Positions 10,062 to 59,060 of a stretch of DNA of 64,000 nt are shown here, one piece after another. Made by a program: the position numbers and the translations under genes. Numbering within the stretch: the stretch's first letter is position 1; each line of letters starts with the position of its first letter. The stretch lies in the NCBI GenBank assembly GCA_964016885.1, contig OZ024740.1:212164001-212228000 (forward strand), read 5' to 3'. This DNA comes from Eledone cirrhosa. Taxonomy: Eukaryota. A model generated the notes under the pieces. The model did no database searches. It saw only the letters and a program-made list of their open reading frames with translations, and was not told the origin of the DNA.

Positions 10062-10500
10062 ATATTAACAAATGGAAAGTATATTTATAAAACCATATTC
10101 ATTTCATTATACATATTTCAAGGATACCAAGTTAAATTATGGTATGCCTTCATCAGACAAAATACAATATATACCAGTTTTATAAATAAACATTGGCGTA
10201 CCCTTTTCAAAATGCGACCGTTACTTTTGGAAGACATCAGGATAGTGGTTTGTTTATTTTAGTAAGTTGGAGTGTTAAGGATAAGTAAAAAGACGGAGAG
10301 AGATAGAGAAACGTGGAGAAAAGAAAGGGAGAGATGAAGAAAAAGAGGAAGGAAAAAAGAAAAAAGAAAACAGAGGAAAACAACAGAGAGATATCAAGCC
10401 ACCAGACAGAGAGAGCAAATTCAAGAGAGAGAAATATAAAGATAGAGAGAGGGGGAGAGAACGAAAACCTTAAGTTGTGCCAGATTAAGTTGAGTTAACA
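10058..10500 (-). mobile_element. PLE pseudo-LTR fragment with HHR (family C)
   Basis: The 3' end is homologous to 33820-33925. Confidence 0.55.
10100..10170 (-). ncRNA. Type I hammerhead, family C (partly decayed)
   Basis: Minus strand: CTGATGA-AGGCATACCA-TAATTTAACT-TGGTATCCTT-GAAA-TATG-TA. Confidence 0.62.
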
Positions 10501-15914: not shown

Positions 15915-16324
15915 TACGTATAAGTGTCAATAAGTAATTTTTTTTTTTTTTTTTTTTTTTTTTGCGCGGGGACATAGAAATAATCGGGCTGGATGCCCGA
16001 TCGCGCAGTTAAACCACTGGGAGTGAAGAACCCCTAGCCCATGTCAGGGTATTCTTCTAGGAGAAGGCATCTCAGGAAACTGGGTTAACTCCGATATAAA
16101 ACCTGCGGCTCAGTAGTTACCGATGATGTTGATCTTTTCTTCTTTTCGGGTTATAGCTACTGTCGCTCAGAGAGTGGGATTGGTTCAGTGCACAGTCTTT
16201 CCTCACTTTAAAAATATTCGTCACGCACAGGCATTGCACGAGTGCATTAATAATTATTAATAGTGTAGTATTATTATTATTATTATTATTATTACTATTA
16301 TTATTACTTTTTTTTTTTTTTTCT

Positions 16325-16364
<40 letters not shown>

Positions 16365-19300
16365 CCAATTCAATGATGTTCCAGAACAATGTAAACGAGA
16401 TAATTGCCAATTTGGGTTCTGGAACAAAAAAGATCATTGGCAATAAGGGCAGGGGCCCCAAGTTATCACAACCTGGGCCCGCCCGTCATCGTGCCATTGT
16501 AATAGAGCCAAACAGGGCATTTAGTCTTGGCTGCTGGAACGTACGGACGCTGCTTGACAGGGATTCTTTGGAGCGTCCTGAACGAAGGACCGCTCTTGTT
16601 GCGAAGGAGCTTCGACGTTACGATCTTGACATCGTGGCTTTGTCTGAGACGAGGTTAGCTGGTGATGGTCATCTTACGGAATTTTGTGGAGAATATACAT
16701 TCTTCTGGAAAGGAAGAGATGAAGGAACCAGAAGAGAGGCTGGGGTAGGATTTGCTGTTAAGACTGTACTGGTGAATAAATTGGAAGAATTCCCAGTGGG
16801 GATTAGTGAGCGTCTTATGTCCATGAGAGTTCCGCTGGACAAGGGAAGATATGCTACCCTGGTGAGTGTGTATGCTCCAACTATGAATTCTGTCGATGAA
16901 GAAAAACTGTCCTTTTACCATGCCTTGAAAGGTGTTTTAAGAAATATCCCTCAGGCAGACAAAGTCATCGTGCTTGGTGACTTTAATGCTAGAGTGGGTA
17001 GGGATTTTAACACATGGAATGTAATCGGAAGGCATGGGGTGGGAAAGTGTAACAGCAATGGTATGCTCTTGCTGCAGATGTGTGAGGAGCTGGATCTGTG
17101 TGTTACCAACACCATGTTCCAACAAAAGAACAAATTCAAGACCACATGGATGCATCCTGCATCTAAGGAATGGCATCTTTTGGACTACGTCCTAGTCAGG
17201 ATGCGTGACAGACAGGATGTGCGGTGTGTTCGTGTTCTTCGTGGAGCTGAGTGCTGGACGGACCACCGCCTGGTACGCGCAAAAGTGAATCTAATCACCA
17301 AACGTAAAATCCGGGCTCCTGGTGTTACCCTGCCCAAAAGATTGAATGCTGCTCGTCTTAAGGATAAAAATGTGAAGAGGACATTGGAAGAAGAGATGCA
17401 GGCTGCAGATCTTGGTGAGGATTGGCCGACCCTTAAAAAGTCGGTTTATGATGTAGGCAGACGTGTTCTGGGATTGGTGCAGAGAAAACATCAGGACTGG
17501 TTTGATGAGAAAGATGTGCATATAGATGACTTGTTGGCTGATAAGAGGCGCGCTCTGTCACGCTACTTGACGGCAAGACCACAGGAGAGGAATACGTTGC
17601 ATGAGGAGCTCAGGGATGTAAAATCACGTGTTAGGCGGAGTCTTTCTCAGATGAAGGATCAGTGGTGGAGTGAGAAGGCTGGTGAGATACAAACTGCGTC
17701 TGATTGCAATAACACAAAGCTGTTGTACAGTCTCTTGCGTGAGGTTTATGGACCGTCTTCTTCTCTGGTGACACCGATTCGCAGCAGGGATGGCAAAGAA
17801 CTTCTTCGTGACTCACAGGGAATTCTACGAAGGTGGCGGGAGCACTTTGATGATCTTTTGAATCAGCCGTCTGTCGTCAGTGAAGATTTCCTCAATCTCA
17901 TTCCGGAAAGTCCTGTGAAAGTAGCTCTCGCAGAGCCTCCGACACTTGTGGAGGTTGCAGTGGCTATTTCGAAGCTGAACAGTGGAAGATCTCCAGGTAT
18001 GGATGGCATACATGCTGAGCTCCTACAATATGGTGGTGAGAGACTCCTGCAACATCTTCACTCTCTGTTTGGAGGGATATGGGCTAATGAATCCGTGCCT
18101 GAGGACTGGAGAGATGCAGTAATGGTGGTCTTGTACAAGGGAAAGGGTAACAGGAATGATTGTGGGAACTACAGAGGTATATCATTGCTTTCTGTCGTGG
18201 GGAAAGTTTTATGTAGGGTGCTTCTGGACCGTCTGCTGACACACATTGCAGATTGTGTCCTTCCTGAAAGTCAATCTGGTTTTCGTGTTGGACGCGGCAC
18301 TACTGATATGATCTTCTCAGCTAGACAGCTCCAGGAGAAGTGCATTGAACAGGGCTTGGATCTGTATCAGGTTTTTGTCGATCTGACAAAGGCTTTCGAT
18401 ACTGTCAACAGAGATGCATTATGGAAGGTTCTCCAGAAACTTGGTTGCCCTGATAAGTTCCTTGCTTTAGTTAGGTCTTTCCATGACGACATGAAGGCTT
18501 GGGTTAATGTCGGAGGTAACATGTCGGAGCCTATCTCAGTAAAAAATGGAGTGAAACAGGGGGATATTCCAGCACCGACCCTGTTTGCCATATACTTTGC
18601 AATGGTTTTCTGTATTGCATTCAGGAATTGCGAGCATGGTGTTTACATCCGATATCGAACCTCAGGCAGCATATTTAACATCAGGCGCTTTGCTGCGAAG
18701 ACAAGGGTATTTACATCAGTCATAAGAGACCTCTTGTATGCAGATGATTGCGATCTTGTAGCGCACACAGAGAGTGATATGCAGCACATTTTGAATGTAT
18801 TTTCTGACGCTTGCACTGCCCTGGGTTTGACTGTCAGTCTCAAGAAAACCGTCGTCATGTACCAACCTGCACCTGGTAGGCAGTACACTGAACCAAACAT
18901 CTATGTGTATGGCAAACGACTTGGAGTGGTTGATCAGTTTGTCTACCTGGGAAGCACTGTCAATCGATACGGCAACCTTGGACAGTGAAATCTCACTTAG
19001 GATTAGGAAAGCAAGTGATGCTTTCGGAAAGCTAGAAAGGCGACTCTGGGGTCGGCGAGACATATGCAGGAGGACAAAGGTAAAGGTGTACAGGGCATGT
19101 GTACTCTCTTGTCTTCTTTATGCCTGCGAGACCTGGGTCACATATCGACGCCACCTTAAGCAATTGGAGCGTTTCCATCAGATGTGTCTCAGACGGATAC
19201 ATGGCGTTCACTGGAGGGACCACATCAGTGATGTCGAGATTTTGGAAAGCTCTATGTGTGACAGTATAGAAGCTCTTGTGCTTAGGCAGCGACTCCGTTG

Positions 19301-21789: not shown

Positions 21790-24868
<3,079 letters not shown>

Positions 24869-24874
24869 GGATAT

Positions 24875-25088
<214 letters not shown>

Positions 25089-25112
25089 ATATATATATAT
25101 ATATATATGTAT

Positions 25113-25375
25113 ATCGCTGCCATGTCCTGCGTCTCCAATAGACCAGTGTCTGTCCTTAGGGCATCAACATACGTTAACCTTGGTCTTCCTCTTCTAGTGT
25201 GTCCATGTAGGGCCTCCCAAAGGAGCACTGAGTGCAATGTCAACTCTGAATGTCGGTGAGCATATCCAGCCATCCTCAGTCTCCTCTGTGTCACTTTTGA
25301 GCTGACTCTTGGGATGCTCCCATACAGCAATAATGAGGGCCAGAGACCGCTGGAGAGAACTCGTCTATGGATCTC
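25113..25375 (-). mobile_element. RTE-like LINE C-terminal fragment
   Basis: [12 protein letters not shown]...LLWE...[13 protein letters not shown]. Confidence 0.75.
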
Positions 25376-28478: not shown

Positions 28479-31400
28479 ACTTATTGACACTTATACGTAC
28501 GACATACACACACACGCATACATATGCGTGCACACAGCAACACACACACACAACAAACACACACACACGCTACTCTACTCACTTACACGCACACACACAC
28601 ATATATATATATATATATTACCGTCATTACTGATACAAGATTACCAGATTATGTCAACTGTTGACTTTCAAGAGTTTGTATAGTTGAAGCCGATCGTATT
28701 ACAGTCCAGTATTACTATAATTGCTTTACAGCATAGAGTTATGGCTCTCCACGGAGTCAACAAAAAAGAGTACCAGTGATGCGCTGGCCAGTCGCTGGAT
28801 CCGTGCCAAAAGCAGAAAAATTATTATTAAAGTTGTTCTTAAGGTCGCTGGTGATGGTGATGGCGACGGCGGTGGTGGTGGTGGTGGTGGTGGCAGTTGA
28901 TGTTGTTGTTCTGTTGTGTGTGTGTGTGTGTGTTTTGTTATTTTGAGTTTTTTTTTTTCCTTTCTTTTTTTCTCCTTTTTTTTTTTTGGCAATAAGGGCA
29001 GGGGCCCCAAGTTATCACAACCTGGGCCCGCCCGTCATCGTGCCATTGTAATAGAGCCACACAGGGCATTTAGTCTTGGCTGCTGGAACGTACGGACGCT
29101 GCTTGACAGGGATTCTTTGGAGCGTCCTGAACGAAGGACCGCTCTTGTTGCGAAGGAGCTTCGACGTTACGATCTTGACATCGTGGCTTTGTCTGAGACG
29201 AGGTTAGCTGGGGATGGTCATCTTACGGAATTTTGTGGAGAATATACATTCTTCTGGAAAGGAAGAGATGAAGGAACCAGAAGAGAGGCTGGGGTAGGAT
29301 TTGCTGTTAAGACTGTACTGGTGAATAAATTAGAAGAATTCCCAGTGGGGATTAGTGAGCGTCTTATGTCCATGAGAGTTCCGCTGGACAAGGGAAGATA
29401 TGCTACCCTGGTGAGTGTGTATGCTCCAACTATGAATTCTGTCGATGAAGAAAAACTGTCCTTTTACCATGCCTTGAAAGGTGTTTTAAGAAATATCCCT
29501 CAGGCAGACAAAGTCATCGTGCTTGGTGACTTTAATGCTAGAGTGGGTAGGGATTTTAACACATGGAATGTAATCGGAAGGCATGGGGTGGGAAAGTGTA
29601 ACAGCAATGGTATGCTCTTGCTGCAGATGTGTGAGGAGCTGGATCTGTGTGTTACCAACACCATGTTCCAACAAAAGAACAAATTCAAGACCACATGGAT
29701 GCATCCTGCATCTAAGGAATGGCATCTTTTGGACTACGTCCTAGTCAGGATGCGTGACAGACAGGATGTGCAGTGTGTTCGTGTTCTTCGTGGAGCTGAG
29801 TGCTGGACGGACCACCGCCTGGTACGCGCAAAAGTGAATCTAATCACCAAACGTAAAATCCGGGCTCCTGGTGTTGCCCTGCCCAAAAGATTGAATGCTG
29901 CTCGTCTTAAGGATAAAAATGTGAAGAGGACATTGGAAGAAGAGATGCAGGCTGCAGATCTTGGTGAGGATTGGCCGACCCTTAAAAAGTCGGTTTATGA
30001 TGTAGGCAGACGTGTTCTGGGATTGGTGCAGAGAAAACATCAGGACTGGTTTAATGAGAAAGATGTGCATATAGATGACTTGTTGGCTGATAAGAGGCGC
30101 GCTCTGTCACGCTACTTGACGGCAAAACCACAGGAGAGGAATACGTTGCATGAGGAGCTCAGGGATGTAAAATCACGTGTTAGGCGGAGTCTTTCTCAGA
30201 TGAAGGATCAGTGGTGGAGTGAGAAGGCTGGTGAGATACAAACTGCGTCTGATTGCAATAACACAAAGCTGTTGTACAGTCTCTTGCGTGAGGTTTATGA
30301 ACCGTCTTCTTCTCTGGTGACACCGATTCGCAGCAGGGATGGCAAAGAACTTCTTCGTGACTCACAGGGAATTCTACGAAGGTGGCGAGAGCACTTTGAT
30401 GATCTTTTGAATCAGCCGTCTGTCGTCAGTGAAGATTTCCTCAATCTCATTCCGGAAAGTCCTGTGAAAGTAGCTCTCGCAGAACCTCCGACACTTGTGG
30501 AGGTTGCAGTGGCTATTTCGAAGCTGAACAGTGGAAGATCTCCAGGTATGGATGGCATACATGCTGAGCTCCTACAATATGGTGGTGAGAGACTCCTGCA
30601 ACATCTTCACTCTCTGTTTGGAGGGATATGGGCTAATGAATCCGTGCCTGAGGACTGGAGAGATGCAGTAATGGTGGTCTTGTACAAGGGAAAGGGTAAC
30701 AGGAATGATTGTGGGAACTACAGAGGTATATCATTGCTTTCTGTCGTGGGGAAAGTTTTATGTAGGGTGCTTCTGGACCGTCTGCTGACACACATTGCAG
30801 ATTGTGTCCTTCCTGAAAGCCAATCTGGTTTTCGTGTTGGACGCGGCACTACTGATATGATCTTCTCAGCTAGGCAGCTCCAGGAGAAGTGCATTGAACA
30901 GGGCTTGGATCTGTATCAGGTTTTTGTCGATCTGACAAAGGCTTTCGATACTGTCAACAGAGATGCATTATGGAAGGTTCTCCAGAAACTTGGTTGCCCT
31001 GATAAGTTCCTTGCTTTAGTTAGGTCTTTCCATGACGACATGAAGGCTTGGGTTAATGTCGGAGGTAACATGTCGGAGCCTATCTCAGTAAAAAATGGAG
31101 TGAAACAGGGGGATATTCCAGCACCGACCCTGTTTGCCATATACTTTGCAATGGTTTTCTGTATTGCATTCAGGAATTGCGAGCATGGTGTTTACATCCG
31201 ATATCGAACCTCAGGCAGCATATTTAACATCAGGCGCTTTGCTGCGAAGACAAAAGTATTTACATCGGTCATAAGAGACCTCTTGTATGCAGATGATTGC
31301 GATCTTGTAGCGCACACAGAGAGTGATATGCAGCACATTTTGAATGTATTTTCTGACGCTTGCACTGCCCTGGGTTTGACTGTCAGTCTCAAGAAAACCG

Positions 31401-32592
31401 TCGTCATGTACCAACCTGCACCTGGTAGGCAGTACACTGAACCAAACATCTATGTGTATGGCAAACGACTTGGAGTGGTTGATCAGTTTGTCTACCTGGG
31501 AAGCACTGTCAATCGATACGGCAACCTTGACAGTGAAATCTCACTTAGGATTAGGAAAGCAAGTGATGCTTTCGGAAAGCTAGAAAGGCGACTCTGGGGT
31601 CGGCGAGACATATGCAGGAGGACAAAGGTAAAGGTGTACAGGGCATGTGTACTCTCTTGTCTTCTTTATGCCTGCGAGACCTGGGTCACATATCGACGCC
31701 ACCTTAAGCAATTGGAGCGTTTCCATCAGATGTGTCTCAGACGGATACATGGCGTTCGCTGGAGGGACCACATCAGTGATGTCGAGATTTTGGAAAGCTC
31801 TATGTGTGACAGTATAGAAGCTCTTGTGCTTAAGCAGCGACTCCGTTGGAGTGGTCACCTTGCCAGGATGAAGGATTCTAGAATACCAAAACAACTCTTC
31901 TATGGAGAGTTGGTTAAAGGAAAACGACCGCCACATAAACCAAAAAAGAGGTATAAGGATTCCTTGAAGGCCTCTCTGAAAGACGCTAACATCTCTGCTG
32001 ATACATGGGAAAATATTGCTGCTGATCGTAATAAATGGAGAAAGACTGTATATGAGGGAAAAGTTGCCTTTGAGGCATCTCGAATCGCACACGAGAAAGT
32101 AAAGCGGGACGTGAGGAAGGGTATTGCTGTTGCACTTCCAGACGGCGAGGGTCCTCCTATGTTTCTGACATGCAGCGTCTGTGCGAGACTCTGCCTAAGC
32201 AAAGCTGGACTCGAAAGTCATCTTCGCAGTCATAAAGTAAGACCAGTGGTTGACTACCAGGCTGCTGTTGGAGATGCTACTCATCATGCTTGCCAAACAT
32301 GTGGTAGAGAATGTAAATCAGCAGGAGGACTCAAGCGACATGCAAAAGTACACGAACTCCAACCACAGCCGACTATTCCCAGTAAATGTTTTGGTTGCCG
32401 ACTCTGTGCAAGACATTTTAGATCATTGGCTGGGCTAAAAAGCCACATTCGATCGCAGCACTGTTAGTTGCTATCGTGTGTTTGTGTGTGTATGTGTGTG
32501 TGTGTGTAGATATGCTTATGTGCGTGCGTGTGTGTGTATATATATATGAATATGTATATTATTATTGTTGTTGTCGTTATTATTATTATTGC

Positions 32593-33324: not shown

Positions 33325-33930
<606 letters not shown>

Positions 33931-33989: not shown

Positions 33990-34115
33990 AATCACTTTTC
34001 TGACAATTGTTTCTCTGAACTGGTAGGTCTAGAGATCACTACCCGCCTGTTTTCGCGTCAATCGTTCACCAATACATAGTGGTAACCAGTCAATTCATCA
34101 GACCTAGCGAGAATG
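33990..34115 (-). ncRNA. Type I hammerhead with 81-nt stem II insertion, family E1 (left arm)
   Basis: Reverse complement of 36760-36882; stem I is partly mutated. Confidence 0.68.
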
Positions 34116-36759: not shown

Positions 36760-36882
36760 TTCTCGCTAGCTCTGATGAATTGACTGGTTACAACTATGTA
36801 TTGGTGATCGATTGACGCGAAAACAGGCGGGTAGTGATCTCTAGACCTACCAGTTCAGAGAAACAATTGTCAGCAATGTGAT
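36760..36882 (+). ncRNA. Type I hammerhead with 81-nt stem II insertion, family E1
   Basis: GCT-CTGATGA(36772-36778)-ATTGACTGGT...ACCAGTTCAGA-GAAA-CAATTG-TC^AGC; GUC site after 36871. Confidence 0.75.
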
Positions 36883-37804: not shown

Positions 37805-37914
37805 AACAAGTAAGACCCCGACGGCTGAGCTCAAGCCGTTTCGACGACTAATTCTGGACCCAATTAGCTGTCGAAACGGCTTGAGCTCAGCCGTCGGGGT
37901 CTTACTTGTTCCTA
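37801..37914. repeat. Perfect 45-bp inverted repeat (114-bp hairpin)
   Basis: 37801-37845 is the exact reverse complement of 37870-37914. Confidence 0.95.
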
Positions 37915-50269: not shown

Positions 50270-51507
50270 TAGTTTAGCGAGGTTTTTTATATGAAATCGT
50301 GTGTCGAAACAGATGTTGTTATACTTGGGGGGGGGGGGGGGGGTCATATTTCCGTAATATTGCCAGAATTAATAACAGAACACACTCACTGTTTGGTTGG
50401 TTTTCGCTTCTCGCTGTCTTTTATATCTGCGATCTAACTTACTCGGTCCTCAATGTTGCCATTGCCTGACCGACGGTCAAAAATAATACAGATACAATAT
50501 AGACACAAACACATACATATAGTTTACATAATTTACATAAATCTTTCGTTGCACATCTGCAACATCGTCAGTGGTGTTATATTCTTTGTTCCTCCTGTTG
50601 TGTTGTATGTCTACGCCATTTTTTATTCAGTCTGTCTATATATTTATTTATTTATTTGCTTGTTTGTTTATCTTATTTTATTTTGTCTTCTTTGCGCATG
50701 CGTTTGCGTGTGTGTATAGTGTTATGTGTGCTGTGTGACTAGTGTGTATAGTGTTGTGTCTGCTGGGTGGCTAGTGTGTGTTTATGTGCTTGTGTATGTA
50801 TTTATTTATCTTATTTTATTTTATTTTACTGACTTATTTATACTTCTCTTAGGTCAGTGTTGTTTGTTTGGGTGTTGTTGTTCCACTCATTCTTTCTGTT
50901 TAGCTTTGGTCTTCTAATTTCTATTTCACTGGCCTCTCTGATTTGCCTATCTGCTGGGTCATTCCTATGTTTAGATATTATTCTAATTTCTATGTTGTCT
51001 ATGTTACCGTCATGTTGTTGTCTAGCATGTTCGTATAGTACTGACCCGTTTTTTCGCCCTTTTAGTTCCCCCAGTGTTGGTCTATCCTTTCACCTATGCT
51101 ACGAGCTGTCTCACCTATGTATGTTGTTGTCATGTTTCTGCAAGTACCCTCTGTACATCTTATGCTATAGACTACGTTTCTAGTTTTACAGTTTATCCGG
51201 GGGTTCACCTTACATATGATACATTTCCTATTGGTACAGTGGGTTTTCTTAAAAGGGTAGGTTTTGCTGATCAGGGATTTTATGGTGGTTCCTGGCTTTT
51301 CTACCACCTTAATTTTTAGTGGGTCTTTCTCAGGGCCTTTCTACACTGGTTAGCTAATTTCCCTCCAGGGGTGGCGTCCACAAACATGACACTCTGATAT
51401 CTCTGGTTGTCGTACCATGATGTGGCCTTCCCTATCTTATGTCTAGCCCTATCTAAGCTATTCCATGATTTGCTCCTGTATAGTGGGCAAATTCCTATTG
51501 GACCTAA
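50270..51507 (-). mobile_element. PLE 3' fragment (GIY-YIG with CxxxxCxxC linker) + pseudo-LTR with HHR at 50530-50580
   Basis: VVEKPG...CKTRNVVY.I.C...YIGETARSIGER; minus strand CTGACGA-TGTTGCA-GATG-TGCAAC-GAAA-GATT-TA. Confidence 0.8.
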
Positions 51508-53619
51508 AAAAATCTAAAAAAATCCATGTCCACTCGGACAAAACTAGAAATCTATATCACATGGATATTGAAAATTACAATGAGTTCATATATAAAGAAC
51601 TCAGGAAAAATTATAGAAAAACAAACAATGCGTCACTTACCAACATCAACAACAAAACACACAGCATAGTGAATAGACTTAATATTGAAGATAGAACTGA
51701 ATCTTTGGCATTGAAAAAACCACACTTCAACCTGAAAGATCATAAATCAAACTTTAACTCTAATCCTTCTATAAGACTTATATGCCCTTCCAAATCTGAT
51801 ATTGGAATAATTAGTAAAAAAATTTTAGATAGAGTCATCCCACAAATAAGAAAACATGTTAATTTACCACTCTGGGAAAACATATCCCAGGTAATTAACT
51901 GGTTTAATAATATTAGATATAAATCCTCTGCTTCATTTCTACAATTTGATATAGATAATTACTATTCTTCTATATCACCTATACTCCTGAACAAAGCCTT
52001 GATATTTGCTAAAAATAGATCTAACTTAACTTTGGATGACATTAATATTATTACACATGCTAGACTAACATTACTGGAATTTCAGAATGAATACTGAACC
52101 AGAAACACATATAGCAATCTTTTTGATATTACTATGGGCTCAAGCGATTCTGCCCAAATTACTGATCTTGTGGGCCTCTTTCTTCTTTTTAACATAAATG
52201 CTTCCTTTCCCCACCTTAAAGGTGGTTTATATCGTGACGACTGTCTTCTTCTTTCCAATAACCTTAGCCTCTCAGAGATAGAAAAAAATAAAAAGCTTAT
52301 TAGAACTTTCCTTAAAGACTATTATAGTCTAGATATTACATTTGAAAACACAAGTAAAGTAGTTAATTTCCTAGATATAGCATTAGACGGGTATCTACCA
52401 ACCTTACGATAAACCCAACCAAAATTTACACTACATACACTCACAATCTAATCACCCTAAATCTATCCTTAAAAACCTTGCATATAATATATCACTTAGA
52501 ATTTCTAACCTTTCGTCTAACCAAGATGTATTTGATAAAAATGCGACCTTTTATAACGAAGCTCTAGCTAGAAGTGGCCACAAAAATAGATTAGTATATA
52601 TACCTTCTACCAATAACACTACAAACATACAACCTAATATTACCAACAAACACCAAATGAAACATACACACCTAAATGCCACTCACACTATACCCCAAAA
52701 CACCAACATAAAACCAAATTTCTCTAACTCTTCTAATATACAGTATAGTAACTCTCAAAAAACTACTCATCCTACAACTCTAATAAATGTTAATAATAAA
52801 ACTCCTAATAAACAAGCTAAAACACCTAAATCAATAAATCTAACTAAAAATGTGTGTGGAGAGGTCATTAACAATAATTCTCCTAGTAAACATCAGGATG
52901 CATCCTATAAAAACAATAAACAACATAGAAACCGTAATAGACGAGTTACTTGGTATAATGCTCCATTTAATTTACAAGTTAAGGATAATATACCTAAAAA
53001 ATTCTTTAATATCCTAGAGAAAAACTTCCCGCCAAACCACAAATACCATCAAATCTTAAATAGATCAACAGTTAAATTCTCCTACTCAACAACCAAAAAC
53101 ATAAAACAAAATATAAGTGCCTATAATGCATATAAATGTAAAAAAACCATAAGTATACCACCAGTACATCAAACTAGCCATAAGATCTCCTCAGATACAG
53201 GATTCACGAAAAGTTGTAACTGTAGAAACAAGGCAAACTGTCCATTAAAAGGAAATTGCCTTGTTAATAACATAATATATAAATGTAGAGTTAGCACTAA
53301 GGACTCTATTTATTCATATATAGGAGCTACCTCTAACAATTTTAAGGTAAGATTTAATACCCACAAACATAGTTTTAAAAATGCCGCACTAGCTAATACA
53401 ACATCTCTAGCTGAAAAAATTAATAGTTATAGAAAGGAGAATATAGAATATGACCTGACCTGGAGTGTGCTCAAAAGGGCCACCCCTTATCAAAATAGTA
53501 GAAATGAATGTAGATTGTGTTCCCAAGAACTTTTCGAAATAATGAAATCTAAGGATATCCTATTAAATAAGAGACAGGAATTAATAATATCGTGTAATCA
53601 TAAACTGAGAAAAACATTT

Positions 53620-54130
53620 AAATATTATAAACCTAATTAATATACACTTTAGAATTTAATATATAAATTAATTTTAATTTAGTTAACCTATAATTAATAT
53701 TCTACTACAGATGAATTACAAAATTCTGCTTTAAATATTATAAACCTAATTAATATACACTTTAGAAATTAATATATAAACTATTTTTAATTTAGTTAAC
53801 CTATAATTAATATTCTACTACTGATGAACTACATAATTTGGCTTTCCTTCTTACAAATATCATTTCCTAAAACTGATACCATTAAGTAAACATATGTAAT
53901 TATTTTTGATTTAGTTAACCTATAATTAATATTCTACTACTGATGAACTACATAATTCTGCTTTAAATATTATAAACCTAATTATTATACACTTTAGAAA
54001 TTAATATATAAACTATTTTTATTTTAGTTAACCTATAATTAATATTCTACTAATGATGAACTACATAATTTGGCTTTCCTTCTTACAAATATCATTTCCT
54101 AAAACTGATACCATTAAGTAAACATATATA
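53620..54130 (+). repeat. Complex tandem repeats (~115-nt units) after the PLE stop codon
   Basis: TTAGTTAACCTATAATTAATATTCTACTA occurs four times. Confidence 0.85.
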
Positions 54131-54297
54131 ATGCTTTAACTCCAGGTTATGATTCTATGTTCCTTGAAACCTATATATAATTACTATTTCCCACTAATAA
54201 ATTTAATCCCCCCCCCAATAATTATATGTATATGTAAGTGTGGATGTGTGTGTATATAAGTGTGTATGTATGTGTGTATGTATGTGAGTATAAAAAA

Positions 54298-54339
<42 letters not shown>

Positions 54340-54342
54340 GTG

Positions 54343-54377
<35 letters not shown>

Positions 54378-54472
54378 GTTTGTGTGTGTGTGTGTATGTA
54401 TATGTACATATGTATACGCGTGTGTATATATATATATATATATGGGTATATGTTTGTGTGTGTATGTGTAGG

Positions 54473-54521
<49 letters not shown>

Positions 54522-55310
54522 ATGTGTGTGTGTATGTATGTATATATATGTAGGTATATATATATGTATATATATATATATATATCATTTTTATATTCTT
54601 TTAATCTCCCCCCATCCTTAACAGCACTTTTCAACTGCATCTAACTCTTATTTATCATACCTATATGTATTAGTATAATTTTATCAATATAAATATACCC
54701 ATCAATTAAATTAATTTTATATCCTTTTCATAGATGTATTTTTTTCACTAACATCCTTATCTTAAGACTGGTCACCTTAGATATTTGTATTGGCATCACT
54801 ATTTTATAACAGCAACTGCTTGTATACCTTCTACTGACCACCTGACCTAGTTTCACCCCTAAAATAAGTTTCAATTACTATTTTACCATTTGGCCAATTA
54901 TTGACTTTCTATTGGTTAACTCTAAACCTCTTACCAAACAGACAGAATTCATTTGATCTTTGTTGGTTTTATTCAATTAACAAATAAAATTATTTCTGAG
55001 GTCAACATATGACCTACTCCTTCCCTAAAGTAATCCATTATTATATTGGATCTTTGTTGGTTTTATTCAATGAACAAATAAAATTATTTCTGAGGTCAAC
55101 ATATGACCTACTTCTTCGCTAAAGTAATCCTTCATTCATAATACTCTTTTCCATCCAAAATTGAAATCTACCTTCCTCTACCCATAATTTAACGTTCTTC
55201 TAATACTATATCACTATCTTGACCCTCACTATCTCCTGATTGGTCAATTCAAAACCTGTTCCCAAACAGACCTATTGTATTGAATCTTTGTTCTTATCAA
55301 TAAGCAAGTA

Positions 55311-55452
55311 TCATTATTTCTGAAGACAGCATATATATGTGAAGGTATGTATATTCCCTCTGATAGTTTGTATAAATATTGTACATAGATCTATAGAATA
55401 TGCATACCAATTCTAACACATATATATCCTAGAAACGATCGTAAAATAATGA
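55311..55452 (+). ncRNA. Type I hammerhead with 105-nt structured stem II extension, family G
   Basis: TCATTATTT-CTGAAGA-...-GAAA-CGATCG-TA^AAATAATGA; perfect 9-bp stem I and palindromic stem III. Confidence 0.8.
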
Positions 55453-55629
55453 ATTTTTTTAATATAAGGAACTGTTTCTTTGTTTATTCATTATTTTTTT
55501 AATAACTTATATATATGTATATATATATATTTGCATATATATATATATATGTATAATATATATGTATAATATATATATATGTTTATATATATATATGTAT
55601 ATATATGTACATGTATATATATATATATG

Positions 55630-56780: not shown

Positions 56781-59060
56781 GACAGTGTTTCGTTCACACT
56801 AGAAGTGGGACTCTTCAGAGCATAAAGAGTAAATACAAAGTATACAAGCATTGACAAAGCCAAAACAGAAGAATATATGTGGGGATACCATAAGTTGGGA
56901 GGAGTTTAAAGAGTAAAGTAAAAGGAGCAAAATAAGAGGAGTAAAATAAAAATAAAAATAAATATAAAAATAAGAATAAGATTAAGAATAAAAAAAAAAA
57001 AAAGAATAAGATTAAGAATAAAAAAAGAATAAGATTAAGAATAAAAATAAAAATAAAAATAAAAATAATAATAATAATAATAATAATAAAAATAAATAAA
57101 AGTAAAAATAAAAATGAAAAATGAAAAATGAAAAATGAAAAATGAAAAATGAAAAATGAAAAATGAAAAATGAAAAATGAAAAATAATAAAAAATAAAAA
57201 ATAAAAAATAATAAAAAATAAATAATAAAAAATAAGAGATGTTATCACTCACAGTTGGGCAGGGTTACGTTAACATACAGCTACATACAATTATATACAT
57301 AAGCATGAGCACCCGCATACACCTACACACAAGCACCCGTATGCAGCACATACAGTATACACTAATACAAATAACATATCATAGACGGATGGGCACAAGT
57401 TAAGAGGTAGAGATAGATAAAAAATAGATAAGAGGTAGATGAAAAACAGATAAAAATAGATAAAAAATAGATAAAAAATAGATAAAAAATAGATAAAAAT
57501 AGATAAAAAATAGATAAAAAAATAGATAAAAGATAAATAATAAAAAATAAAATAAAAAATAAAATATAAAAAATAAAAAATAATAAATAAAAAATAAAAA
57601 ATAATAAATAAAAAATAAAAAATAAGATAAAATAAAATAAAATAAAATAAAATAAAATAAGATAAAATAAAATAAAATAAAATAAAATAAAATAAAATAA
57701 AATAAAGTAAAGTAAAATATACACCAGAAGATAAATAAAACAATACACCAAAAAAAATGGAGTAAAATATACACCATAAAGGAAGGTGTGGGTAAAGATA
57801 AGACTGGCAAATTCGTAAGCTATCAAGCTATGTTCAACAACACATAGAATACACAAAAATATATATACAAAAATATATATAAAAAATATATATATTTTTG
57901 TATATATATTTTTGTGTATTCTATGTGTTGTTGAACATAGCTTGATAGCTTACGAATTTGCCAGTCTTATCTTTACCCACACCTTCCTTTATGGTGTATA
58001 TTTTACTCCATTTTTTTTTTTGGTGTATTGTTTTATTTATCTTCTGGTGTATATTTTACTTTACTTTATATTATTTTATTTTATTTTATTTTATTTTATT
58101 TTATTTTATTTTATTTTATTTTATCTTATTTTATTTTATCTTATTTTATTTTATCTTATTTTTTATTTTTTATTTATTATTTTTTATTTTTTATTTATTA
58201 TTTTTTATTTTTTATATTTTATTTTTTATTTTAATTTTTATTATTTATCTTTTATCTATTTTTTAGCTATTTCTTATCTATTTTTTATCTATTTTTTATC
58301 TATTTTTTAATCTATTTTTTATCTACCTCTTATCTATTTTTTATCTATCTCTACCTCTTAACTTGTGCCCATCCGTCTATGATATGTTATTTGTATTAGT
58401 GTATACTGTATGTGTTGCATACGGGTGCTTGTGTGTAGGTGTATGCGGGTGCTCATGCTTATGTATATAATTGTATGTAGCTGTATGTTAACGTAACCCT
58501 GCCCAACTGTGAGTGATAACATCTCTTATTTTTTATTATTTATTTTTAATTATTTTTTATTATTTTTTATTTTTTATTATTTTTTATTTTTTATTTTTTA
58601 TTTTTCATTTTTCATTTTTCATTTTTCATTTTTCATTTTTCATTCTTCATTTTATTTTTACTTTTATTCTTAATCTTATTCTTTTTTTATTCTTAATCTT
58701 ATTCTTTTTTTTTTTTTATTCTTAATCTTATTCTTATTTTTATGTTTATTTTAATTTTTATTTTACTCCTCTTATTTTGCTCCTTTTACTTTACTCTTTA
58801 AACTCCTCCCAACTTATGGTATCCCCACATATATTCTTCTGTTTTGGCTTTGTCAATGCTTGTATACTTTGTATTTACTCTTTATGCTCTGAAGAGTCCC
58901 ACTTCTAGTGTGGACGAAACACTGTTAGCAATTAAAGATATACCTATGTTCTAAGCGCTCTTTGTTGTTAATTGTATTACGGCTCTGTCCTTTGACATTG
59001 AGCTAACCATATACTGCCTACTTGATAAGTGGAGTGTTACACACTCCCAATTCTCTCCCT
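56781..59060. mobile_element. Fold-back pseudo-LTR pair (family F), ~1.05-1.1-kb arms, centre near 57890
   Basis: 56781-57880 is the reverse complement of about 57890-58926; HHRs at 56781-56830 (-) and 58880-58940 (+). Confidence 0.9.
58880..58940 (+). ncRNA. Minimal type I hammerhead, family F
   Basis: TGCT-CTGAAGA-GTCCCACTTCTAGTGTGGAC-GAAA-CACTG-TT^AGCA. Confidence 0.82.

What the first reader, a model, noticed from the sequence alone, without database searches (positions are those of the whole stretch)
55311..55452. Independent large-stem-II hammerhead (105-nt insert) at the end of the longest Penelope element
Seen: perfect 9-bp stem I (TCATTATTT/AAATAATGA), CUGAAGA and GAAA-CGAUCG-UA^. 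The insert has nested helices ATATATATGTG/CACATATATAT (11 bp) and GGTATGTATATTC/GAATATGCATACC (13 bp). The insert looks unrelated in sequence to the 81-nt one, and part of the helix is built from TA-microsatellite-like sequence. Inference: stem II expansion recurs across PLE lineages here. Speculatively, the AU-repeat helix could relate to recognising (TA)n targets.
Basis: partly seen in the sequence, partly recalled or inferred. Interest (0 to 1): 0.78.

Follow-up and report, generated by a model that had tools for sequence, protein, structure and literature searches.

The report
Long-armed hammerhead ribozyme in Penelope retroelement
A jumping gene with over ten thousand copies in this animal genome carries a hammerhead ribozyme motif whose stem II arm is about 100-115 bases long (12-26 in described relatives) and is kept by compensating base changes; it likely sits at the very start of the element's RNA and is predicted to cut only when unlocked or paired with a second copy.

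Summary
The motif is real: a type I hammerhead with an intact core, 9-bp stem I, 105-nt stem II and palindromic stem III (fold z -3.95). It belongs to a Hydra-clade Penelope-like element (PLE) family with at least 10,268 complete copies and intact 813-aa ORFs elsewhere. The 'mutated' C·A and C·C pairs at the base of stem II are the family state. The long stem covaries across subfamilies. The AU repeat is not what is kept: a 10-copy subfamily has GGGUAG/CUACCC there, and families without the repeat also insert into (TA)n, so the targeting idea is not supported. New here: 37 of 100 consecutive copies begin 1-8 nt before the core, often after an extra G. That likely marks the transcript's 5' end, making the ribozyme almost the whole pseudo-LTR. 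In a short-stem relative this start lies about 80 nt further upstream, the same 131 nt from the cut site. Cleavage, start site, a predicted self-locking fold and a candidate splice donor in stem II are untested; no usable RNA data were found. Verdict: new variant of a known kind, missed by Rfam.

The parts
51494..55510 (+). 5'-truncated Hydra-clade PLE copy (ORF remnant, long 3' UTR, hammerhead, tail)
   Evidence: blastn to the intact unit in L219 starts at 51494; the end joins (TA)n at about 55508-55510
51494..53640 (+). Broken RT + GIY-YIG ORF (stop at 52095-52097, frameshift near 52385); DKT, YRDD, CxCX5C, CxxC and CxH motifs
   Evidence: translation; intact 813-aa ORFs in L217, L219, L220
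55311..55319 (+). Stem I, 5' strand
   Evidence: 95.2% of cells paired in alignment A1
55313..55313 (+). Commonest 5' start of short family copies (A of TC|ATTATTT, 7 nt before the core); likely transcription start (inferred)
   Evidence: 37 of 100 copies start at -1..-8, 15 of them at -7; G at -8 in 646 copies against G at -9 in 101
55320..55326 (+). Catalytic core CUGAAGA
   Evidence: invariant in alignment A1, whose rows were selected for an intact core
55327..55431 (+). 105-nt stem II: base C·A, R-U, G-C, C·C; helix IIa 55331-55341/55417-55427; helix IIb 55344-55356/55396-55408; apical hairpin
55345..55350 (+). GTATGT in helix IIb: candidate splice donor or downstream promoter element (untested)
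   Evidence: kept in all 7 subfamily groups (the script anchored on it, 124 of 129 copies matched); GTATGT/GTACGT also in the leader of the 30-nt family
55432..55443 (+). GAAA core, palindromic stem III ACGAUCGU, GUA triplet; predicted cut after 55443
   Evidence: palindrome in 127 of 129 copies; triplet GUA in 72, GUU in 57; duplex -10.0 against monomer hairpin +2.4 kcal/mol
55444..55510 (+). Stem I 3' strand and tail up to the first reverse-transcription start; joins (TA)n
   Evidence: of 100 copies, 51 end in (TA)n here, 48 run on into the 5'-UTR extension, 1 other

Best explanation
This is a type I hammerhead motif of a high-copy Hydra-clade Penelope-like element whose stem II is a covarying rod of about 100-115 nt; it likely occupies the very 5' end of the element's RNA and likely cleaves slowly, as a dimer or with help from the element's protein. 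Shown: the motif, the family, the covariation, the two 3' junction points and the 5' start cluster. Inferred steps follow. Transcription would start about 7 nt before the core of an upstream copy. Reverse transcription would start on uncut RNA at the end of the tail or about 138 nt further on, primed from (TA)n. It would either run off the RNA's 5' end, giving the roughly 190-200-nt solo and head-to-head copies, or, on read-through RNA, copy the whole upstream unit. The long stem would be the pseudo-LTR leader folded into the ribozyme: short-stem and long-stem families have the same 131 nt from start to cut. The A at position 11.1 is predicted to let UUUCU pair with AGAAA and hold the core shut in nascent RNA, which would preserve the template. 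The AU repeat is one of several sequences that fill helix IIa and has no shown role in targeting.
For: Core, palindrome and triplet. Covariation: 93.1% of cells paired, 41 cells changed on both sides, 0 of 500 shuffles as high, slid controls 20-55% paired. Helix IIa pair 5 is A-U, G-U or G-C by subfamily; pair 7 is A-U or G-C; pairs 5, 6, 7 and 10 are G-C in the GC-rich group; the first pair of IIb is G-C or C-G. Intermediate stem lengths are rare (103 matches, mostly deletion forms by eye). Starts: 37 of 100 within 8 nt (23 separate sites) against 12 anywhere inside the ribozyme. G before the start in 6 of 15 at -7 against 1 of 22 elsewhere (p 0.011). By eye, 14 of 36 G junctions have no nearby template, and in two pairs both partners carry the G. 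In the 30-nt family about half of 28 copies start at CACT|ATCC, 75-90 nt upstream (by eye); start to cut is 131 nt. Lock: P(C3-G12) 0.87-0.96 in nascent RNA of 5 of 5 long-family representatives, 0.0 in the 30-nt family; RNAalifold picks the same pairing. Precedent: promoter in the pLTR (PMC2377424); internal RT start, uncut RNA as template, protein-assisted cleavage (PMC11167929).
Against: No cleavage or RNA-end data. The most conserved pair, G10.1-C11.1 (PMC4209133; PMC3088659), is replaced by C·A, which may lower activity strongly. Copies are related, so the shuffle control overstates covariation: only 7 pairs change on both sides (136 of 500 shuffles as high), and most of the signal comes from one 10-copy subfamily. 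10 of 36 G junctions are templated and 8 are ambiguous. R2 adds untemplated G and T without a cap (PMC13000458). 5 of 100 apparent starts proved to be insertions of another repeat. The lock uses invariant bases, so nothing covaries, and the energy model ignores tertiary contacts and dimers; with the full stem I the window copy folds with stem I closed. The 30-nt leader does not align significantly to the long insert (37-431 of 500 shuffles).
Confidence: 0.6

Rival explanations
1. The short copies end at stem I because reverse transcriptase is released there: once the nested inverted repeat is copied, RNA and cDNA refold into hairpins and the U-rich hybrid slips. There is no transcription start at -7.
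For: Starts spread over -1..-8, inside the 5' strand of stem I; head-to-head joints use AAATAAT/ATTATTT overlaps; the 81-nt family also has starts at -1..-17, within its longer stem I (about 9 of 29 by eye).
Against: The 30-nt family has a long stem I, but its starts cluster at a sequence motif about 80 nt upstream; the extra G sits at -8, not -9 (646 against 101).
Confidence: 0.2
2. The core no longer cleaves. The fold is kept as a protein-binding or reverse-transcription signal, and the core bases are kept for the locked pairing.
For: C·A replaces G10.1-C11.1; the locked fold is favoured by 3.5-6.7 kcal/mol in the energy model; cleavage was not needed for insertion in vitro in an Anolis PLE (PMC11167929).
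Against: Both core halves, the palindrome and a legal NUH triplet (GUA or GUU) are kept across subfamilies, which the lock alone does not require; C·A and U·U at this position occur in other PLE hammerheads (PMC8557442 file S2), and a natural U·U variant is reported in PMC3088659.
Confidence: 0.15
3. One reading: the AU-repeat helix was captured from microsatellite and helps recognise or prime (TA)n targets.
For: The helix is AU-alternating in 6 of 7 subfamily groups, including the young ones; a microsatellite-like origin by slippage cannot be excluded.
Against: The GC-rich subfamily lacks it, and several of its copies abut (TA)n; so do the 30-nt and 81-nt families; junctions with (TA)n are made at the tail end and the extension end, 60-200 nt downstream; the repeat is buried in a duplex.
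Confidence: 0.04

Closest known systems
Type I hammerheads of Hydra-clade PLEs (PMC8557442, passages and supplementary file S2 read)
   Same: Sense strand, near the 3' end of the unit; CUGANGA/GAAA core; short palindromic stem III; mismatch at the base of stem II in many rows; (TA)n targets; inverted truncated partners.
   Different: The 26 Hydra rows have 12-26 nt between the core halves by my count (longest in the whole table about 54); here 94-126 nt, mostly 99-116, with nested helices. Here the ribozyme's 5' strand coincides with the pseudo-LTR boundary.
Minimal dimer-forming PLE hammerheads (PMC4209133, parts 1-2 of 4 read)
   Same: Palindromic stem III, predicted dimer, larger than usual helix II.
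   Different: They keep G10.1-C11.1 and a helix II of about 7-8 bp; here C·A, a second C·C mismatch and about 24 bp plus an apical hairpin.
Drosophila virilis Penelope (PMC2377424, passages) and Anolis Poseidon PAc (PMC11167929, passages and part 2 of the main text)
   Same: Promoter and start site in the pLTR, an optional 3' extension between two RT starts, uncut RNA as template.
   Different: The extension here is about 138 nt, not 30-40; the candidate donor lies inside stem II rather than before the ribozyme; the ORF starts about 350 nt after the cut site rather than inside the ribozyme.
5'-UTR hammerheads of chrysoviruses and fusariviruses (PMC13725137, passages)
   Same: Type I ribozyme ahead of an ORF, no loop-loop contact evident.
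   Different: Their 'long' helix II is 6-8 bp; a role in translation is shown there and untested here.

Membership tests
Type I hammerhead ribozyme | CUGANGA and GAAA core, A15.1-U16.1 pair, NUH triplet | tested here: met
   (GUA 72, GUU 57 of 129; the pattern required U then A, C or U)
Type I hammerhead ribozyme | Three helices with an open stem I | tested here: met
   stem III is stable only as an intermolecular duplex
Type I hammerhead ribozyme | G10.1-C11.1 pair (usual, not universal) | tested here: not met
   C·A in 128 of 129 copies; the same mismatch is listed for PLE-X1_cBra in PMC8557442 file S2
Type I hammerhead ribozyme | Self-cleavage after the NUH triplet | not testable with these tools
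   only contigs of unknown kind were served
Rfam hammerhead models | Score above threshold | tested here: not met
   no hammerhead among the 5 matches at E up to 10; the long stem II is outside the models
Hydra-clade PLE | Single ORF, RT followed by C-terminal GIY-YIG | tested here: met
   813-aa ORF with YRDD and YIG motifs; Pfam finds nothing in the ORF itself, weak GIY-YIG in 3 of 25 aligned proteins
Hydra-clade PLE | DKT motif, R-W-K-like motif, CxCX5C linker, CxxC and CxH, no CCHH | tested here: met
   SDKTGN, RWR, CNCRNKTNC, CRLC, CNH read against the definition; likeness to Hydra-1_Obim judged by eye only
Hydra-clade PLE | Placement in the Hydra clade of an RT tree with reference families | not tested
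Hydra-clade PLE | (TA)n insertion, partial tandems, inverted truncated partner, optional 3' extension | tested here: met
Hydra-clade PLE | Unit generally under 3 kb | tested here: not met
   unit about 6.4 kb in L220, 3' UTR 3.5-3.8 kb in four young copies
Non-LTR retrozyme | Head-to-tail tandem repeats of short non-coding hammerhead units | tested here: not met
   short copies are solo or head-to-head (23 sites with 1-3 copies) and the family has its own ORF

The most novel reading that the evidence does not exclude
The pseudo-LTR of this PLE has become one ribozyme-switch. Transcription starts on stem I. The long stem II holds the internal promoter and a splice donor, whose intron (about 430 nt, to an AG 35 nt before the ATG) removes the cut site and both RT starts from the mRNA. 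A built-in C3-G12 lock keeps the unspliced RNA uncut until the protein or a second copy opens it. Cleavage would then decide between template and waste, and the thousands of short copies are 'strong-stop'-like run-off cDNAs.
Probability: 0.25. Interest if true: 0.72.

Novelty: new variant of a known kind. Interest (0 to 1): 0.5.

Why it matters
What the hammerhead does for PLEs is an open question. This family is young, has intact ORFs and over 10,000 copies, and its insertions record where the RNA begins and where reverse transcription starts. That makes the link between start site, cleavage, splicing and template use directly testable. It also shows that Rfam misses such motifs, so PLE hammerheads with long stem II may be undercounted, and 'half-core' cases in Naiad elements (PMC8557442 methods) deserve a second look.

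Tried and rejected
Rfam: the first 150 of 510 window matches were microsatellite-driven miRNA hits and the like, none a hammerhead; none at the locus. Pfam and PDB did not recognise the ORF. Sequencing runs: no RNA holder listed; six runs as contigs of unknown kind. Laying five of them showed no splice joint and no pile of ends, which says nothing either way. The first tree run did not finish; the FastTree run used 46 of 76 rows (P0031-P0060 dropped) and left the three families unresolved; row L237 probably belongs to another element. Automatic truncation mapping in the 30-nt family was confounded by microsatellites, so I read it by eye. The 3'-end count used too short a window and was redone. 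My first count of 40 short starts included 5 insertions of another repeat; the recount gave 37. MAFFT misaligns helix IIb of the GC-rich group, so understates it; anchored counts are. Homology of the long insert to the 30-nt leader was not significant. Lünse et al. 2017 is not held. Earlier scan findings: none. No paper describing such a long stem II turned up in searches; the library lacks most subscription journals.

Full report
Observation. Stem I is 9 bp (55311-55319/55444-55452), the core halves are at 55320-55326 and 55432-55435, the insert is 105 nt, and the predicted cut is after 55443. The region folds at z -3.95, with 0 of 200 shuffles as stable. Rfam does not detect it.

Host element. 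The copy runs from 51494 to about 55510, is 5'-truncated and has a stop and a frameshift. Young relatives L217, L219 and L220 hold intact ORFs of about 813 aa. These carry DKT, RWR, YRDD, CxCX5C, CxxC and CxH, which match the definition of the Hydra clade in PMC8557442 (passages). No tree with reference families was made. The host is an animal with a 3.0-Gb assembly; that it looks like a cephalopod is my recall and untested.

Family. Patterns give 3,274 and 10,268 complete motifs and 12,478 3' halves, each with 0 control matches. Inserts of intermediate length are rare (103). Fetched copies have 94-126 nt inserts. The base of stem II is C·A, R-U, G-C, C·C throughout (129 copies; 96 of 100 listed start CA). 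The 30-nt sister type has the same G-C then C·C step (18,706 matches). So the pairs that looked mutated are the inherited state. C·A and U·U at this place also appear in PMC8557442 file S2. There the 26 Hydra rows have 12-26 nt between the core halves by my count.

Covariation. On 35 aligned copies 93.1% of cells pair and 41 change on both sides (0 of 500 shuffles), while slid controls pair 20-55%. Only 7 pairs are involved (136 of 500 shuffles as high) and the copies are related, so this is support, not proof. By subfamily, helix IIa switches A-U to G-U to G-C at pair 5 and A-U to G-C at pair 7. In a 10-copy subfamily it is GGGUAG/CUACCC, with a G-C to C-G swap in helix IIb. Pairing is kept; the AU repeat is not.

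Targeting. Of 100 consecutive copies on contig 1, 51 join (TA)n at the end of the tail and 48 continue into the 5'-UTR. Many extensions end about 138 nt on and join (TA)n there (loose ends at L220:6420). This matches the two internal RT starts described for an Anolis PLE (PMC11167929). Families without the AU helix also abut (TA)n, as is listed for 26 of 27 Hydra families. The AU-helix idea is therefore unnecessary.

Independence. The window insert is unrelated to the 81-nt insert (172 of 500 shuffles). The long, 30-nt and 81-nt families form three endonuclease clades with support 99-100 but unresolved branching (46 of 76 rows). A shared 11-12 nt word between the GC-rich subfamily and the 81-nt insert leaves some doubt.

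The 5' start. Of the same 100 copies, 37 (23 sites) start 1-8 nt before the core, 12 start inside the ribozyme, 1 starts at -9..-22, 45 extend further, and 5 carry another repeat inserted in stem I. The commonest start is -7 (window 55313). A G that is not the template base precedes it in 6 of 15 cases, against 1 of 22 at other starts. Genome-wide, G stands at -8 in 646 copies and at -9 in 101. Reading 36 such junctions by eye: 10 templated, 8 ambiguous, 4 joined straight to (TA)n, 14 without a nearby template. In the 30-nt family about half of 28 copies start instead at a conserved motif 75-90 nt upstream (by eye), and start to cut is 131 nt there as in the window copy. A defined pseudo-LTR of about 200 bp with an initiator-like motif is known (PMC3846280), and Penelope's start lies in its pLTR (PMC2377424). 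What differs here is that the ribozyme fills the pseudo-LTR from its first bases. That an extra G reflects a cap is my recall; R2 adds untemplated G and T regardless (PMC13000458). The G therefore argues for run-off at an RNA end more than for a cap.

Mechanism, with inferred steps marked. Transcription likely starts at -7. The nascent RNA is predicted to pair UUUCU with AGAAA, which uses the unusual A11.1 and shuts the core (P 0.87-0.96 in 5 of 5 long-family representatives, 0.0-0.01 for this pair in the other two families; same pairing). Stem III is stable only as a duplex of two RNAs, as argued for other PLE hammerheads (PMC4209133; PMC6765202). Uncut RNA serves as template, since the inserted copies examined span the cut site; run-off gives the short copies. 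GTATGT in helix IIb, echoed in the 30-nt leader, may be a splice donor as in Penelope. A candidate acceptor lies 35 nt before the ATG. No RNA data could test any of this.

Verdict. A real and abundant hammerhead variant of a known association, with a stem II four to nine times the Hydra range and at least twice the longest in the one table I could read. I found no description of it in the paper searches listed under Tried and rejected; Lünse et al. 2017 and most subscription papers could not be read. Interest 0.5.

Noticed in passing
L168, L183, L184, L190, L215, L085, L091, L119 (stem I 5' strand): A SINE-like repeat of about 100-200 bp has inserted into the ATTATT of stem I, with different lengths and target duplications, which suggests independent events; 24 of the 100 junctions listed are of this kind.
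   Followed up: partly
window 33828-33892 (+) and 10100-10164 (-): 30-nt stem II hammerheads of a sister Hydra-type family, 18,706 matches, with the same G-C then C·C step at the base of stem II.
   Followed up: yes
window 36772-36871 (+) and 34002-34101 (-): 81-nt stem II hammerheads of a distant Hydra-type family (107 matches) on an inverted pair; base A·A; several copies start at TC|ATTCTC, 13 nt before the core.
   Followed up: partly
window 5923, 11417, 11839, 37570, 38380, 49108, 58889 (+); 3574, 9525, 11053, 21704, 56818, 61340 (-): At least 13 further hammerhead-like cores of other families with short stems.
   Followed up: no
L002 = G000:C1:211745141-211748396; L224, L225: The locus recurs about 470 kb upstream on the same contig with 100% identity over the 256 bases tested and the same flank, along with the 81-nt pair: a segmental duplication or an assembly duplicate.
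   Followed up: no
window 16157-18988 and 28901-32467 (+); 23442-25163 (-): Two similar endonuclease-RT LINE ORFs (943 and 1188 aa, the longer with C2H2 fingers) and a third RT ORF.
   Followed up: no
L217:5484-7922: The PLE ORF has an Asn/Thr/Lys-rich stretch between RT and endonuclease, like the N-rich inserts described for Adineta Penelope elements (PMC3846280).
   Followed up: no
L217-L220, 3' UTR: Young subfamilies have 3' UTRs of 3.5-3.8 kb with internal tandem repeats, against 1.7 kb in the window copy and 0.7 kb in L153.
   Followed up: no
window 37809-37906 and 57814-57955: Long near-perfect hairpins, picked up as weak miRNA matches.
   Followed up: no
runs X5, X6: Contigs of two other coded organisms hold pieces of the same hammerhead region at low depth; source unclear.
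   Followed up: partly
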